From NCBI RefSeq assembly GCF_001447785.1, contig NW_015162482.1, positions 845,930 through 909,929 of the forward strand: a DNA stretch of 64,000 bases, written 5' to 3'. The DNA is from Gekko japonicus. Taxonomy: Eukaryota. Of the stretch, positions 3,181-31,475 are shown piece after piece (the first letter of the stretch is position 1; each line of letters begins with the position of its first letter). The notes beneath the pieces are model-generated. The model saw only the letters and a list, made by a program, of their open reading frames with translations. It did not search any database and was not told the DNA's origin. The position numbers and the translations under genes are program-made.

Positions 3181-3712
3181 TTCACTCGGAGTCTCAGAGT
3201 GGCTTACAAATGCCTTTCCCTTCCCCTCCCCACAACAGATACCCTGTGAGCAGTGTTCCCTTTAAGCTGAGTGAGTGTGAGCTAACTCACAGTTTTTTAG
3301 CCTCCAGCTCACAGATTTTTGTCTTAGCTCAGGAAGGATGGCTCCAGACCAGTGTTCCCTCTAAGCTGCGTTAGTGTGAGCTATCTCACAGTTTTTTAGC
3401 CTCCAACTCACACATTTTTGTCTTCGCTCAGGAACTAATTTATGCAGCAGTCAAATCGCTCGCTCACAACTTCAATGCCAGTAGCTCACAAAGTAGAATT
3501 TTTGCTCACAAGACTCTACAGCTTAGAAGGGAGTATTGCCTGTGAGGTAGGTGGGGCTGAGAGAGCTCTGACAGAAACTGCCCTTTTCAAGAACAGCTCT
3601 GATAGAACTGTGGCTTGCCCAAGGTCATCCAGCAGCTGCGAGTGGAGGAGTGGGCAATCAAACCTGGCTCTCCCAGAGTAGAGTCTGTGCACTTAACCAC
3701 TACACCAAACTG
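3181..3712 (-). mobile_element. Squam3-like tRNA/CORE SINE, interrupted by a hAT MITE and cut at its 3' end by BovB
   Basis: Reverse complement of the SINE at 36996-37275 (ends taaccactacaccaaactg). Confidence 0.8.
3251..3538 (+). mobile_element. hAT-type MITE (TIR cagtgttccctctaag) with duplicated 5' arm
   Basis: 8-bp TSD cctgtgag at 3243-3250 and 3539-3546; the 5' arm repeats from 3350. Confidence 0.85.
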
Positions 3713-23842: not shown

Positions 23843-25623
23843 ATAGCCTAGCTCACCACCTAGTGGTGCATAATGCTAAAGAGCTAGAACTTCTGGCTGC
23901 CAGACAATCTTAAGATCTCCTGGCTATACAACACACGCTGCCATATGATTGTTGTTATTATTACATGATACCTCAAAGTTCCTCCCTTGAAAACCAGGAC
24001 CCTGACCATAGAAAGCTAGCATGTTAGGGCAAGCGCTATGCTAGTGTAACCCGGGCACTGGAAATAAAGGCTAGTTCAAGGCTTGGGGCCTCCTTTTTTA
24101 AAGCCCCCCTCCCACTCACATGCCTTGGCTTAAGCAAAGTAACTATTTATTACAACAGGGAAAATACCGTTTTGTACACAGGGTACGGTACTCCTGGCCC
24201 CCAAACTCCTTTCTCTTCCCAAACCAAAGTCCAATAGTCAGCGTCCCATAGGGTTGCCAGCCCCCAACTGGAGATCCTCCAATTTCACGGGCTCCTGCCC
24301 ACCCCGGCCAGTTGGCTGGTGGGAAAGCCCCGTCTCAACAGCCATGACCTGGTACAATGTCCCCAATGTAATGATATCACGCAGAAGTGATGTCATCATG
24401 TCAGGGACATCACACGCGGTGACATAGCTCCGCCCCCACTCCCAGAAAGCTCCTTCCCACCCTCCACCGGCAAGGGCAAAGGACCTGCAACCTTAGTGTC
24501 CCAGAAGTACTGGTTTCTTCATGAAGTTGGTTCAGCCGCAGACCCTCAGAAGCCAGGTTGCCAGGTCCTCTTGTCTTGACAGCAAGGAGTGGGAGGGAGC
24601 TCTCCGGGAGTAGGGGACAGGGAGATATCGCCACGCGGGACATCCCCGGCATGATGGCATGTGGAATGGTTTAGTGGGGTCTGTGCATGCTAAGTCTGGG
24701 GCTTCTGTCAGACATTTGATGATCCCTTTAAATGCTCTCTCACAGTTTTCCCATCGTTCCCCAAAAGGTTCTAAAGGGTCATGATAAAGTCCCCCTGTGT
24801 TTCCTTTCATGGATCTCTTTTTCTTGCCACTTCAAGGGGTCATCTTAATTGACTGGATCCTCTAGTTAAACCATTTAGGAGTTTCATGATAGCAGAATAG
24901 CCATGGACAAACTGTCTATAATAACCAGTAAACCCTAAAAAGGTCTTCAGATCTCTATAATGCCAAAGACGTGGCCAGTGAGTGAGCACACGTATTTTTT
25001 CTGGGACTGTACTAATTCCCTCCTGTGACACTATAGGTCCCACATACTTGACAGATGTCCTACAGAAATAGCATTTCTCGACAACTTAAGTCTATAGGTT
25101 TTATCATTGGTCCAACACCTTTAAAAGCCTTTCCTCTTGTTCTTCAAGTGTTTTCCCAAAAACTATGAGATTATCTATATAAACCAATATTTGCAGCAAG
25201 TTCATGTCCCCCACAGATTTTTACATGAGCCTCTGAAAGGTGGCAGGGCCCATGGAGATACCTTGGGGAATGTGTTCAAATTGATAAAACCCCAATGGAC
25301 AGATAAAAGCTGTCTTTTCCTTATCTTCCTCTGCAAGGGGAAAACATGGTTGCACTTACCTGTAACTGATGTTCATCGAGTGTCTTCTGTGCTGGCACAC
25401 ATGGGACTGCCGGAAGGCAGGCCTGCCGCGGAAGAACATTCCAAGAGCTTCCTCAATCCTGTAAGAATTGAGTCCCCCCCTCCCCTCGGAGAGAATTGTG
25501 AAATGAGCCATTTCCCGCCCATTTGGTCATGTGACGAGGGGAGGGGGAGGCACCTCTCGCTCTCAGTCCTAACCTGCCGCCGTGGAAAAATACAACTCGT
25601 CCACAGCGGGGAAGGAGGGAGGG

Positions 25624-25719
25624 ATGTGTGCCAGCACAGAAGACACTCGATGAACATCAGTTACAGGTAAGTGCAACCATGTTTTCATCTTCGTGTCTTC
25701 TGTGCAGTCCCACATGGGA
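25624..25719. repeat. DIRS internal complementary region (ICR)
   Basis: 25624-25686 is the reverse complement of 25340-25402; 25684-25719 is the reverse complement of ~30792-30827. Confidence 0.93.
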
Positions 25720-25766
25720 GTCTAGCAAGCTACACAAGACTCGGAGGCGGGTGTGGGCGAAACAGT

Positions 25767-26790
25767 TTATTCAAGTAACGATTGTAACACTGCTGTACCC
25801 ACAGATGCGTCAGCTTTAGAATCAACATCGATTGAATAGTGTTGAATGAAAGTCAAAGGTGAAGACCAAGTAGCTGCATTACATATGTCAGAAATATTGA
25901 TAGACGCCGCGAAGGCAGTCGAGGTTGCTCGGACTGGAAAGGGACAGGGGAGACCTGCAGAGACATAACTGCTACGAATGGCTGAAACGATCCACCTGGA
26001 GATGGACTGTTTCGTGGCCGTCTGCCCCTTTTTGGGACCAGTGCAACAAACAAACAAACAAACTGTGGACCTGAACACCGACGTGCGTTTCAAGTAAAAC
26101 AATAAAGCTCGTCTGAGATCCAAAGTGTGTAACTCCCTCTCTACTTCGGAAACCGGACTGGGGAAGAAAGCAGGGAGGACTACGTCCTGTGAAGTATGGA
26201 ACGCAGTAAGCACCTTTGGCCGAAAATCTGCGCTTGGCCGTAGCATCACCTTATCAGGGTGAAACTTTAAATAAGGGGAATCTATTCGAAGGGCCTGTAA
26301 TTCCCCAACTCTACGAGCTGAAGTAATGGCAACCAGGAAGGCGACCTTGTGTGTCAAATGAACCAACGAACTCTTAGCCAGTGGCTCAAACGGAGCCGCC
26401 ATCATCTGTGTTAACACCTGTTTGAGATCCCATTGAGGGAAGGGAGGCCGAACCACAGGGAACTTGTTGTACAATCCCCGTAGGAAACGTTTCGATAAAG
26501 CATTGGAAAATATCGGCTTGGATTCAATTCCCAAGTGAAAAGCCGATATGGCCGCAAAGTGAACCTTAATGGCCGAAGGGGAAAGACCCTCGTCGATTAG
26601 TGTCAGGAGGTACTCAATGATCTCCATTAAAGGACAAGTGTCCGGGCGAATTTTATGGTCTTGCACCCAAACAGTAAATTGACGCCATTTGGCCGTATAG
26701 GACTTTCAGGTGGAGGGCTTACGGGAAGCTAGCAGTATTTCTGTTACCCGATCAGAACAAGTATCTACGTGGAAATGAACCATGCGTGTA
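25767..26790 (-). pseudogene. DIRS tyrosine recombinase (TGA at 26706-26708; HxxR motif deleted)
   Basis: LVAITSARRVGELQAL (catalytic R), AATWSS..F..HY (catalytic Y); VRATSTAF where HSTR is expected. Confidence 0.88.
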
Positions 26791-27190
26791 GGTTTAGGGT
26801 GTGGGGGGCAGGGTGGCGAGTATGACCGATCCGTAGCAAGTCTGGAACTTGCGGCAATGGGTACCTGTCATTCCCGGTTAGCATTACCAGCAGCGGGAAC
26901 CAAGGCCGACGGGGCCATAGCGGAGCTATCAGTATGCACGCTGATCTGTCGTGTGCTAGTTTTGTCAACACTCTCGGTAAGAGGGGAAGAGGCGGAAAAG
27001 CATAAAACAGGGCGCCAGTCCACCTGAGGAGGAATGCATCCCCCAGACAGTTGTCCCCCCTTTGTGACCTGGCACAGAACAGCGGGCACCTCGCGTTTGC
27101 CGTCGAGGCAAAGAGGTCTACCTCCGGCCAACCCCACCTCTGAAATATGGGGATCAGATACGTGAATGGGAGGGACCACTCGTGGACCAT
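26765..27190 (-). pseudogene. DIRS DNA N6-adenine methyltransferase-like domain (frameshifted from RNase H)
   Basis: HEWSL..PEVDLFAS..NA.C..FC..DAF...W....YAFPP...IAP.WP..PWF motif set. Confidence 0.85.
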
Positions 27191-28711
27191 GAGAGCTGTT
27201 CTGCTGACTGAGTATGTCTGCTAGGCTGTTTTGAGAGCCCGGAATGTGAACCGCTGAGAGGTGGAATCCCTGTCGAATCGCTAATTCCCAAATGAGCGAA
27301 GCTTCCTTGCATAGGGAAAGGGAACCTGTACCACCCTGCTTGTTGACGTAAAACATCGCGACTGTATTGTCCGTAGCTATTTGGATAGTCTTTCCAAGGC
27401 CGGAATCTGTAAGAGAGAGAAGGGCGTATCTTACCGCTCTAAGCTCAAGTCTGTTAATATGAAACTTAGATTCCCTAGGGGACCAAAGGCCCTTCACCTG
27501 TATGGACCCAGAGAGAGAAGGGCGTATCTTACCGCTCTAAGCTCAAGTCTGTTGATATGAAACTTAGACTCCCTGGGGGACCATAGGCCCTTCACCTGTA
27601 TGGATCCAGAGTGCGCTCCCCAGCCCTCTAAGGAGGCATCCGTAAACACATGTGTGTCAGGAAGACTGGGCGCCAACGGAAACCCCCGCGCTAAGTTCTC
27701 CCGTGTCGTCCACCATCGTAGGGAGGACAGGATCTGCCTAGGGATGGAGAGGAAAACCCACTGGGAATCCCATTCCGAGTTAAACCTTCGTAAAAACCAA
27801 TTCTGCAAAGGTCTCATGCGGAGCCTGGCGTGCATGACCGTGGAAGTAGTGGAAGCCATGATACCTAAGAGCCTCTGAATGTGTAGGGCCCTCTGATGTC
27901 TCTTGTGGAAGAAAGAGTGAACCAGGGATTGTATAGCTCTGGTCCTGTCTTCAGGTAGAAATGCCCTATGAGCTATTGAGTCTAACCTAGCCCCTATGAA
28001 CAGGATAGATTGAACGGGGGAAAGTTTAGACCTCTTCAAATTGACCACAACTCCCAATGACTGGAGAGTATTGATGGTGAAATGAACCTGGGCTAGCAAC
28101 CGCTCACTGGAATCAGCTACTAGCAACCAATCATCTAAATATGCATAGACTGCACATCCGTGGAGTCTGAGATGAGCCACCACCGCAGAAAAACATTTCG
28201 TGAAGACCCTGGGTGCCGTCGCCAATCCGAACGGTAGCACGCAGTACTGGTAATTAGTACCCTTGAACTTAAAGCGGAGGTACTTCCTACAGTCGACATG
28301 TATCGTAATATGGAAGTAAGCGTCCTGGAGGTCGATGACGACGAACCAGGAACCTGGAGAGATAGAATGGTAAACCTCTTCTAGAGAAAGCATGCGGAAT
28401 CTACGCACATGTAAGTATTTGTTCAACTCTCTCAGATCTAAGATGGGTCTGAGCCCACCTCCCTTCTTTATGAGGAAGTAGTTGGAATAAAAACCATAGT
28501 TCCCCTCATCCCCAGGGACGACCTCTAGAGCACCCTTAGACACCAATGATTCGATCTCTAAAGCCAAGGCCTCGTCTTGTCTATGCGAGGTAGGGACCTC
28601 GAAGGATACAGGCGGGGTATCTTTAAACTCCAGAAAGTAACCAAACTTTATTATGCTTAACACCCATGCATCCGAACAAACCGTAGACCATTGACTGAAA
28701 AAACGTGCCAA
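27190..28711 (-). pseudogene. DIRS reverse transcriptase / RNase H, broken by a 98-bp duplication
   Basis: LRPILDLRELN, IDLQDAYFH, LPFGLATAPRVFTK, YLDDWL, TDASLEGWGAH, HINRLELRAV, TDNTVA, ADILS. Confidence 0.92.
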
Positions 28712-28739
28712 ACGGGCCCTGAAGAGAGGGGGAACACCT

Positions 28740-30510
28740 CATTGTGAACTCCTACCCCTGGAGAATGATCCCCTAGGGGAACGAGACTGTCTGCCCCGTT
28801 GTATGGGTTGTTGACGTTTTGGGGGGAAAGGATGCTGGAAAGACCCCCTAAATGGTTGGGAGGCAGGCGAGAAGCGATACCCTCTGACTGCGGCTAGGTA
28901 CTGAAAGTGTCTAGGTACTGAAAGTATCTAGTTTTCGTAGATTGAGGCTGTTGTTGCGTAGTTAAACCTAATGACTTAGCTGTCAGCTAGTCCTTCGCAC
29001 TTTCTCTAAAACCTCGTCAGCCTGTTCGCTAAAGAGGAGTTTACCCTCAAAAGGCAATCCTCAATTCGCGCCCTCGTATCTGGGGGAAGGGCGGATGAGC
29101 GTAACCATGAGTGCCTACGCAGGACTACGGCCAATGCTATAACCTTGCTCGCAGCGTCAGCTGCATGTCTGGAAGCATTGAGCTCATGTCTGGCTAGGCG
29201 AGCTCCCTCTGTATGAATTAGCTTGGCCTGCTCCTTCTTGTTATCTGGAAGGTCAGCCAGTAATGGGGCTAACTGATCCCATAACGTAACTTGGTACCTG
29301 GCCATAATAGCCTTAAAATTAGCTATTCTTAGTGTCAGAGCTCCAGACGAATAGAGCTTTCTCCCTAAAGCATCTAACTTTCTGCCCTCTTTGTCTAGAG
29401 GAGAAGACTCGGTCCTCCCGTCTGTTTAGAGGGAATTACCTCCGCCACCATCGAATTGGGTTGGGGATGGTGATATAGGAAGAAACCATCATCCTCTGTT
29501 ATTTTATAGAGGTTCTCTATCTTTCGATCAGATCCTGCAACCGAAGCCGGACGAGCCCAGTTATTGCAGGTAATTTCCCTTATCCCCTTAACCAAAGGAA
29601 TAGCCACTGGGCCCACATCAGAGGCATATAAAATCACCGACACGGGATCTTCCTCTAAAGGTTTGGGAGAGACAAATTCTATTTCAAGGGCTTTAACCAT
29701 TCGCAGAAGCTGCTCTGAATAGCCCTTCAATTCCTCAGTCAGAGAAATTGGGGTAGGATCCCCTACTGCCTCCTCAGGCGACGGGATCAAGGTGTGTTCC
29801 GATTCGGAATCAGAGCCGTCGCTCGAGGCCTGTCCCTCTGACTGAGCAACGTCCAATTGTCCCACAGGAGACCTGGCACCGGCAAGGGACTTTGACGTGG
29901 AAAGGTCTCGACGTCGATGTGGATCTCGACTTGGACTCCGACGACTCTGAGATGCAGCAGGCTTTTGGCACCAAGGTGGCACCCACCAGGGGGGAACTTG
30001 TTCCCAATCGACAGGGTAGCCCCACGGATGAACGTCCCATCCTTGGCTGCCCGAAGAACCAGATCTGGAAGACTTCCTCGGTTACCGAAGGCTCCGACGT
30101 CGAGCACAACGGTGATGCCGGTAAGTTTCCTCAGTTCCCATCGGGGACACAGTAGAGGACTTAGATTTGCCCGTTTTTGCCTTTTTCTGAGGCGGTTGGG
30201 CAGATACGGACCTTTTCCGGCTCCTCCCTGCCGAGACCTGCTTCGGCTTTTGGGATTTTAAAGGGCCCTTGACGACGTCGGTAGTGAGATTCGACGGGGA
30301 GGGAGTACTAGTGCCCCGAGACAAGGTCTGCTCCCAAAGGGCTGCTTTCAACTTTAATGCTCTCTCCTGCTTGGTTCTCGGGCTTACCATACCGCAGATT
30401 TCGCAGGAGGTTGTGTTGTGGCCCTCTCCCAGACACAGGAGGCATTTTAGATGGTCATCTGTAGTAGCCATCTTCGACCCACAAGCCTGGCATTTCTTGA
30501 AGAGAGCCAT
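28740..30510 (-). pseudogene. DIRS gag-like ORF1 (N-terminal Cys/His finger; LAP2alpha-like region), frameshifted
   Basis: FKKCQACG...DDHLKCLLCLGEGH....CEIC; HPQPNSMV; VVLRRHSWLRSS in successive ORF fragments. Confidence 0.8.
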
Positions 30511-31475
30511 GGAGTTGAGATCTCCAGAGAAAAGATGGTAAAAAAAGAAAAAACTGAATTTTGTTTAAACCTGAGGTAAAAGAACAGTAGCTCTGGAAAA
30601 TATGTCCTTTCCTCACGGCGGCAAAAAAAGGACTGAGAGAGAGAGGTGCCTCCCCCTCCCCTCGTCACGTGACCAAATGGGCGGGAAATGGCTCATTTCA
30701 CAATTCTCTCCGAGGGGAGGGGGGACTCAATTCTTACAGGATTGAGAAAGCTCTTGGAATGTTCTTCCGCGGCAGGCCTGCCTTCCGGCAGTCCCATGTG
30801 GGACTGCACAGAAGACACGAAGATGAATCTGGTAGTATCCACTCCGAAGGTCAAGTACTGAAAACCATTGACTTCCAATTAGACAGTCCAAGGTGTCGTG
30901 CACACAAAGCATAGTGTACTGGTCAGGTTTTGTACGTTTATTTAGTGTCCAATAATCAACACATATTCTGGTTTTCCCATTCTTCTCCCTTACTACCACC
31001 ATAGGTGAGGTATAATGGCATTAGCCTGTAAGTCACAAAGGTGTTGTCTTATATCTTCTATCTCAGATAAAGCCAGTCTCCTGGATTGTTCATGGAATGG
31101 AGAAAGATCTGTTAGGTGGATAAGATGTTCCCCAAGATCCCATTCATGAAGTGAGAATACTTGGGCTTTCTGGCAAAGTTTCTGTCTGAAGCATTCCATC
31201 CATGCCTCAGGAATGGGTGAATCTCCAAACTCAATTACAGCTGGGTCCAATTTTAACTCAGAAGGGCTAGGTCTACTTATTTCCACAGAAATAGCCTCAA
31301 ACAGGTCTGCCACCTTTCGGTTTGGCTTTACAGAGATGTTGTGATTGGATACATTGGCAATCCTTACCACCACTTGTGGATGCTTCCCTTTAGGTAAGTC
31401 GATAATTCCAGCCAGGAAGGGATTGTTGCTGTTCTTTTTATATTGAGGATTATTACTTCATGCAAGCCAATACTA

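What the first reader, a model, noticed from the sequence alone, without database searches (positions are those of the whole stretch)
27412..27612. 98-bp duplication in DIRS RNase H whose five differences are all synonymous: likely chimera of two DIRS copies
Seen: two tandem copies both encode GSIQVKGLWSPRESKFHINRLELRAVRYALLSL. They differ at GGA/GGG, CTA/CTT, CCC/CCT, GAG/GAA and ATC/ATT, all third-position silent changes. The duplication frameshifts the ORF, so later neutral decay should not favour silent sites, and the ITRs differ at only ~4 of ~170 positions. Inference: the two halves come from different selected lineages, joined by an out-of-register template switch or recombination at a ctct microhomology. 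This would be evidence of inter-element recombination in DIRS replication, which is poorly documented.
Basis: partly seen in the sequence, partly recalled or inferred. Interest (0 to 1): 0.7.

Follow-up and report, generated by a model that had tools for sequence, protein, structure and literature searches.

The report
Two-lineage junction in DIRS retrotransposon
One broken copy of a DIRS jumping gene carries a 98-base stretch twice, and the two copies match two different sub-lineages of that jumping gene, likely because DNA repair copied from a second element out of step, though an assembly error is possible and mixing of this kind is already known from related elements.

Summary
In detail: a 98-bp tandem duplication (27412-27607, 4-bp CTCT overlap) in the RNase H region of a complete DIRS element, with five synonymous third-position differences. 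The two-lineage inference also holds. At 4 of 5 sites the upstream unit carries the alleles of sublineage X and the downstream unit those of sublineage Y; both allele sets occur in independent sequencing runs. Post-duplication mutation gave this in 3 and 1 of 300,001 simulations, and a tree test rejects the units as sisters (p-AU 0.014). The flanks are one locus. Not shown: that the join arose in DIRS replication, or that it exists in a chromosome. The copy has at least three lineage switches, its two ITRs carry different inherited haplotypes, no donor copy was found, and similar duplications are common in host DNA; this favours chromosomal repair from a second element (0.40) over copy choice during replication (0.27). 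This assembly also pastes shared repeat sequence into DIRS interiors, and no read spanned the junction in six runs (a weak test), so an assembly chimera stays at 0.30. Recombination between family members is known for LTR retrotransposons; I found no report for DIRS in the library searched.

The parts
25340..30827 (-). Complete DIRS1-like element, bounded by the trinucleotide TTC at both ends, no target-site duplication
27510..27607 (-). Upstream unit U of the duplication; X-type alleles at 27584, 27575, 27569, 27554; allele at 27605 seen in no other close copy
27412..27509 (-). Downstream unit D; Y-type alleles at 27486, 27477, 27471, 27456; lacks two further alleles (27451, 27434) that both Y copies share
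27510..27513 (-). 4-bp CTCT overlap at the junction; this junction is found once in the assembly
27000..27509 (-). Tract grouping with Y by shared derived alleles (7 with L040, 0 with X); left limit approximate
27510..28894 (-). RT and start of RNase H; related to X by shared derived alleles but about 5% diverged from it, and it keeps the 414 bp that X lacks
28895..30600 (-). 5' block with no substitution against X copy L035 over 28895-30078 and 30130-30600; the inner part may be collapsed assembly sequence
30078..30129 (-). Second out-of-register joint: deletion of at least about 220 bp in gag with no overlap, next to a 50-bp stretch with 4 substitutions and a 1-bp gap against X
27204..27207 (.). 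4-bp insertion (second frameshift, RNase H/methylase region), found only in this copy
25929..25930 (.). Deletion of 18-21 bp in the recombinase ORF, found only in this copy
25767..26705 (-). Tyrosine-recombinase-like ORF; a third haplotype, 5-12% from both X and Y per bin, private alleles mostly synonymous
25380..25570 (.). 3' ITR core; 4 differences from this copy's 5' ITR, two of them shared with both ITRs of L033
30629..30818 (.). 5' ITR core, standard family type
25624..25719 (.). Internal complementary region, complementary to both termini
   Evidence: I3 97%, I4 100%
30828..31100 (-). Right flank: older LTR-retrotransposon RT fragment, contiguous with the left flank (25080-25339) in paralogs

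Best explanation
The two 98-bp units carry the alleles of two different DIRS sublineages, and they were likely joined in the chromosome when break repair copied about 500 bases from a second, Y-related DIRS copy and likely rejoined 98 bases out of step at a 4-base CTCT overlap. Shown: the duplication, the overlap, the X-type and Y-type allele sets, the single locus, and the frameshift. Inferred: a break in the RNase H region of this copy; one end invades a Y-related element (another chromosomal copy or a DIRS cDNA) and is extended past the break; the new strand is released and joined to the other end by microhomology instead of annealing in register. A variant is an ordinary host tandem duplication followed by a conversion tract that stops at the junction, where homology to the donor ends. 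The product is a dead copy with no evidence of function or spread.
For: Alleles: at 4 of 5 sites U matches X (L031-L039, one collapsed haplotype) and D matches Y (L041 4 of 4, L040 3 of 4). Simulation: 3 and 1 of 300,001 runs reach 4 in-phase sites; U+D as a clade is rejected, p-AU 0.014. Independent data: a D-type contig at depth 967 in run X1 (flank contigs there have depth about 70), and raw reads of X9 and X12 with no other letter listed at U's four shared sites. Shared derived alleles switch at the junction (X 10: Y 2 over 27510-28136, 0: 7 over 27000-27509, Fisher p 0.0007) and back again (7: 1 over 26700-26999, p 0.0014), which looks like a patch with one in-register end and one microhomology end. 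Host DNA holds many gap-free two-copy tandem duplications: 24 loci in 1.2 Mb, 13 with a junction overlap of -3 to +5. Most other copies with both ITRs have matching cores, including private variants in L031 and L033, whereas this copy's ITRs are two haplotypes; replication is modelled to copy one ITR from the other (PMC7192593, introduction). The junction and both private indels tested occur once in the assembly, so no parent with those lesions was found. cDNA-to-chromosome conversion is reported for Ty and Tf2 (PMC6598467, passages), and DIRS-1 makes linear single-stranded cDNA (PMC7192593).
Against: No read or contig spanned the junction in six runs. Maximum-likelihood trees leave this copy unresolved on both sides of the junction, and site polarity rests on outgroups about 75-78% identical. 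D is not identical to any sampled Y copy. Several switches in one copy are typical of RT copy choice (PMC6894440, PMC5668417, passages). The locus looks empty in run X1 and the 5' end has no private allele, both of which fit a young insertion born mosaic. The ITR mismatch concerns the 5' block, not the 98-bp joint itself, and assembly collapse would give the same mismatch. Missing donors may sit in gapped or collapsed copies.
Confidence: 0.4

Rival explanations
1. Assembly chimera: the interior of this copy was stitched from sequence of several DIRS loci, so either the junction or the pairing of U with D does not exist in a chromosome. One version is a real duplication whose upstream side was entered from another haplotype through the 44 identical bases next to the junction.
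For: The assembly has 191,500 scaffolds and many DIRS copies hold N gaps. Nine X-bodied copies show 0 singleton alleles over about 3,150 interior bases each but 9 in the 430 bases near the 5' end; L033 has 9 substitutions in 30130-30600 and none in 28895-30078. L036 has Y-type ends for about 600-660 bp and an X-identical middle; L051, L052 and L054 turn X-like 790-870 bp from the 3' end. L043-L049 all stop within one base of the same position. This copy has a second, blunt out-of-register joint. No spanning read was found.
Against: No N lies in the element. A 4-base overlap arises in about 1.6% of random joins (my arithmetic; higher in a CT-rich stretch). Graph-based gap filling needs reads holding the junction (general knowledge). 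Most of the interior is rare haplotype, not the majority sequence that gets pasted elsewhere. The apparent excess of periods 97-99 (7 of 60 hits) did not recur in a fresh 600 kb (none at 97-99). The flanks are contiguous in 5 of 7 paralogs.
Confidence: 0.3
2. Copy choice during DIRS replication: reverse transcriptase, or second-strand synthesis on cDNA, jumped between DIRS templates, once out of register at CTCT, and the mosaic was integrated precisely by the recombinase of an active element.
For: Precise TTC ends. At least three switches along the copy. Private alleles are 26 synonymous to 16 nonsynonymous, so they come largely from selected lineages. No private allele in the 5' 700 bp, and a probably empty site in X1. 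L032 has the reciprocal pattern, Y-type 5' end and X-type 3' end. DIRS-1 RT appears to act in trans (PMC7192593, section 21), and the defective X group is multi-copy. Old and young Onsen members recombine during transposition (PMC5668417, passages).
Against: The ITRs are not homogenised, so intermolecular ITR restoration has to be added. No donor with the 3' lesions is in the assembly, although the recombinase deletion lies about 590 bp from the end, where copies usually keep their own alleles. A 95%-identical in-register landing site was available 98 bases away. Onsen recombinants came from two parents; this copy needs three or more haplotypes in one round, or several rounds. L032 could be an assembly product.
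Confidence: 0.27
3. Ordinary tandem duplication followed by five unselected point mutations that happen to be synonymous.
For: Gap-free tandem duplications with a few percent divergence are common in this genome. One of the five differences (27605) is private to this copy.
Against: Four of five differences reproduce, in phase, alleles that separate X from Y: 3 and 1 of 300,001 simulations, p-AU 0.014. 5 of 5 synonymous has p about 0.002.
Confidence: 0.01

Closest known systems
DIRS1-like tyrosine-recombinase retrotransposons (PMC3266345, passages; PMC7192593, introduction and sections 21, 26)
   Same: ITRs, ICR complementary to both termini, trinucleotide at both ends without target-site duplication, gag-like / RT-RH-MT / YR order, about 5.5 kb.
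   Different: This copy is broken by two frameshifts and two deletions, and its ITR cores are two haplotypes. The passages read do not describe recombination between copies.
Intra-family recombination of LTR retrotransposons, Onsen/Copia78 and Ty1 (PMC5668417, PMC6894440, passages)
   Same: New copies are mosaics of family members, often with several junctions, and old members contribute sequence.
   Different: There it was shown on new insertions and extrachromosomal DNA, is pairwise and homology-driven. Here it is one assembled copy, one junction is out of register, three or more haplotypes are involved, and the stage is unknown.
Non-allelic gene conversion between transposon copies, including cDNA-to-chromosome recombination of Ty and Tf2 (PMC6598467, passages)
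   Same: A tract of one copy matches another family member while the locus and its flanks stay intact.
   Different: Here one end of the tract coincides with a 98-bp duplication, and no exact donor is in the assembly.
Microhomology-joined tandem duplications made by host break repair (recalled from general knowledge; no paper read)
   Same: Two-copy tandem duplication with a short overlap at the junction; 13 of 24 control duplications have an overlap of -3 to +5.
   Different: The two units derive from different paralogs rather than from one template.

Membership tests
DIRS1-like retrotransposon | Inverted terminal repeats | tested here: met
   (I1, I2)
DIRS1-like retrotransposon | Internal complementary region matching both termini | tested here: met
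   25624-25691 against 25335-25402 (97%), 25684-25719 against 30792-30827 (100%)
DIRS1-like retrotransposon | Same trinucleotide at both ends, present once in the empty site, no target-site duplication | tested here: met
   GAA on the plus strand at 25340-42 and 30825-27; flanks overlap by these 3 bases in paralogs L184, L185, L187, L188
DIRS1-like retrotransposon | Reverse transcriptase | tested here: met
   Pfam RVT_1 E 8e-22
DIRS1-like retrotransposon | RNase H and methylase domains after RT | tested here: inconclusive
   Below Pfam cut-offs: RNase_H E 0.004 on relative L050 over the homologous stretch; Dam E 0.1 on the window ORF; none at E 0.001 for the window pieces. The order is as expected.
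DIRS1-like retrotransposon | Tyrosine recombinase ORF overlapping pol | tested here: inconclusive
   Phage-integrase N-terminal SAM-like hits E 0.002 (window) and 9e-5 (L040), below cut-off; overlap with pol seen in L040 and L050
Recombinant between two family lineages | Each side carries, in phase, alleles of a different independently existing lineage | tested here: met
Recombinant between two family lineages | Separate trees left and right place the copy in different supported clades | tested here: inconclusive
   with X at 81/84 for 27912-28899, unresolved in the other four segments; unit-level tree puts D with Y at 80/84
Recombinant between two family lineages | Junction present on single DNA molecules | tested here: inconclusive
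   none in X1, X2, X5, X9, X10, X12; the raw runs were read at under 1x and the locus looks empty in X1
Replication-stage (RT copy-choice) recombinant | Terminal repeats homogenised after the join | tested here: not met
   4 differences between ITR cores, 2 of them an inherited haplotype; the expectation rests on the cis model in PMC7192593
Replication-stage (RT copy-choice) recombinant | Recombinant present in extrachromosomal cDNA or in new insertions | not testable with these tools
   needs cDNA sequencing or a tagged-element assay

The most novel reading that the evidence does not exclude
DIRS elements exchange sequence between templates while they replicate: this copy is a mosaic of three or more lineages made by copy choice, with two out-of-register jumps and a left ITR restored from a different molecule, and a decayed lineage (X) spreads and recombines in trans. 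That would give DIRS the intra-family 'sex' known from LTR retrotransposons and amend the single-molecule fold-back model of ITR restoration.
Probability: 0.25. Interest if true: 0.58.

Novelty: new member of a known kind. Interest (0 to 1): 0.3.

Why it matters
If the junction is real, it is a sequence-level record of exchange between DIRS copies, which I did not find described for this group in the library searched (subscription papers, including the main DIRS reviews, are not held). A replication-stage origin would bear on how DIRS handles templates and restores its ends, a cycle tested experimentally only in part (PMC7192593). A repair origin is one more case of ectopic conversion in a repeat. 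The copy itself is dead and single. A practical lesson is that DIRS interiors in this assembly are collapsed, so mosaics and ITR ages read from it need read support.

Tried and rejected
1) Neutral decay after duplication: rejected. 2) An overlapping ORF constraining the sites: the other frames have stops there. 3) CpG decay as the cause of the five differences: none lies in a CpG (sequence). 4) A join of two loci or a crossover between loci: the flanks are contiguous in 5 of 7 paralogs. 5) A read-length artefact at period 97-99: 7 of 60 hits in the first sample, which included the window itself, none in a fresh 600 kb; not supported. 6) Read support for the junction: none in six runs; weak, since X9, X10 and X12 were read at 1-4% of each run, contigs drop rare variants, and X1 looks empty at this locus. 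7) Segment trees: mostly unresolved; they used L031 as the only X row and 3-4 outgroups chosen by coverage. 8) Donor search: the 4-bp insertion, the recombinase deletion, the U motif and the junction each match only this locus; the D motif matches this locus, L040 and L041. 9) L036, L051, L052 and L054 as natural recombinants: set aside, because their switches lie at similar distances from the ends; L032 is kept as weak evidence only. L043 shows T at 27486, but this is the last base before a gap, so it was not counted. 10) Earlier scan findings: two look-ups empty, one unrelated hit. 11) Searches on gap-closing errors and on microhomology duplications gave listings that I did not read further.

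Full report
Observation. The duplication is as described: units at 27412-27509 (D, downstream in gene sense) and 27510-27607 (U), 95% identical, with a 4-base overlap at the junction. The five differences are all synonymous third positions in the pol frame, with a probability of about 0.002 under unselected mutation. The frame shifts and stops shortly after the junction.

The element. The unit lies in a 5,488-bp minus-strand element (25340-30827) with ITRs, an ICR complementary to both ends, TTC at both termini, an RT (Pfam E 8e-22) and sub-threshold RNase H, methylase and recombinase signals in the expected order. These match the DIRS1-like description in PMC3266345 (passages) and PMC7192593 (abstract, introduction, sections 21 and 26). 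It sits in an older LTR-retrotransposon RT fragment whose two halves are contiguous in 5 of 7 paralogs, so both ends belong to one locus.

Relatives. Searches of the own genome gave 32 further loci; counts are lower bounds. Close copies form a defective multi-copy group X (414-bp RT deletion, gag indels, private changes 9 silent to 28 replacing) and a group Y (L040, L041, L051, L052, L054). Six copies at about 70-79% identity served as outgroups.

Two lineages. At four of the five sites U has the X allele and D the Y allele (L041 4 of 4, L040 3 of 4); the fifth is private to U among close copies. Five random post-duplication mutations reproduced this in 3 and 1 of 300,001 runs, and holding U and D together costs 9.2 log-likelihood units, p-AU 0.014. 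Both allele sets exist outside this assembly: run X1 holds a D-type contig at depth 967 against about 70 for the flank, and raw reads of X9 and X12 list no other letter at U's four shared sites. Between this copy and Y, 55-85% of RT differences are silent, so five silent differences are unremarkable for two selected lineages.

More than two parents. Polarised with outgroups, the copy shares derived alleles with X upstream of the junction (62 against 3 with L040), with Y over 27000-27509 (7 against 0), with X again over 26700-26999 (7 against 1), and with neither clearly in the recombinase ORF (Fisher p 0.0007 and 0.0014). From 28895 to 30600 it has no substitution against X copy L035, apart from a 50-bp stretch beside a gag deletion. 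Its private alleles are 26 silent to 16 replacing, pointing to unsampled selected lineages plus some decay. Against this, maximum-likelihood trees of the segments are mostly unresolved, D lacks two alleles shared by both Y copies, and because the last 44 bases of the units are identical the switch is located only to 27510-27553.

ITRs. Most other copies with both ITRs have matching cores, and L031 and L033 carry the same private variants at both ends, as expected if one ITR is copied from the other. This copy's 5' ITR is the standard type; its 3' ITR differs at 4 sites, two shared with L033 and seen in roughly an eighth of X10 reads. The ITR difference is therefore not an age, and the two ends came together after the last ITR copying, or the left ITR was restored from another molecule, or the assembly replaced it.

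Assembly risk. Nine X-bodied copies have no singleton allele over about 3,150 interior bases each but 9 in 430 bases near the 5' end; L036 has Y ends and an X middle. The assembler therefore pastes shared sequence into DIRS interiors, and the junction lies more than 2 kb from either flank. No read or contig crossed it in six runs, but coverage was under 1x for raw runs and in X1 the flank contig leaves the element at 25342, which suggests an empty site. In favour of a real joint: no N in the element, a 4-base overlap, rare rather than majority haplotypes around it, and no reproducible excess of read-length periods among control duplications.

Mechanism. A tract of about 500 bp with one in-register end and one microhomology end, in a single copy with no donor found, in a genome where gap-free tandem duplications occur about once per 50 kb (24 loci in 1.2 Mb), fits repair synthesis from a second DIRS copy or cDNA best (0.40; the repair pathway is general knowledge, conversion between copies is reviewed in PMC6598467, passages). 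Copy choice during replication, as shown for Onsen (PMC5668417, passages; PMC6894440, passages), fits the many switches, the precise ends and the young-looking 5' part, and DIRS-1 RT appears to act in trans, but it needs extra assumptions for the ITRs and the donors (0.27). An assembly chimera stays at 0.30.

Novelty. Exchange between family members is established for LTR retrotransposons. Searches pairing DIRS with recombination, template switch, chimeric, mosaic or gene conversion listed no paper on it for DIRS; I saw only listings for most hits, subscription reviews are not held, and no supplements were read. The finding is a credible single example of a known kind of event in a little-studied group, unproven at the junction and not tied to replication. 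Interest 0.3.

Noticed in passing
L031-L039, L043-L049 (G000, several scaffolds): A defective DIRS group (X) at 16 or more loci, with a 414-bp RT deletion, gag indels and a variable 147-bp tandem array; its private changes look unselected (9 silent, 28 replacing), as if a decayed copy had been spread in trans. Interiors are collapsed in this assembly, so copy ages are unreliable.
   Followed up: partly
L031 and L033, both ITRs: Private variants are present in both ITRs of the same copy, which supports copying of one ITR from the other during DIRS replication.
   Followed up: partly
L032 (C13970) and L036 (C597): Both have a Y-type 5' end (30170-30540) on an X body; L036 also has a Y-type 3' end. 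L036 looks like a gap-fill chimera; L032 may be a real reciprocal mosaic.
   Followed up: partly
L045, L047, L051: The outer ITR alleles typical of the 5' end sit at the 3' end, and in L047 and L051 the ends appear swapped, suggesting inversion of the interior between the ITRs or mis-oriented scaffolding.
   Followed up: no
window 30078-30129: A deletion of at least about 220 bp in gag with no overlap at the joint, next to 50 bp carrying 4 substitutions and a 1-bp gap in an otherwise X-identical block: a second joint with a haplotype change.
   Followed up: partly
window 3251-3434 and from 35919: Two more two-copy repeats with period 99 (85 and 69 matching bases) in this window; the period excess did not recur in control sequence.
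   Followed up: partly
L050:4466-5728: The gag-like ORF of a related DIRS has a weak LAP2alpha hit (E 0.009); PMC4495291 (search listing only) mentions DIRS in a paper on LAP2alpha co-option.
   Followed up: no
window 27451-27456 against L040, L041, L031: All four allele combinations occur at two sites 5 bases apart, implying recurrent mutation or very fine-scale exchange among Y-related copies.
   Followed up: no
window 24800-25339 in run X1: The flank differs from the assembly by about 2% and appears to lack the DIRS, so the insertion is probably not fixed across samples under this species label.
   Followed up: partly
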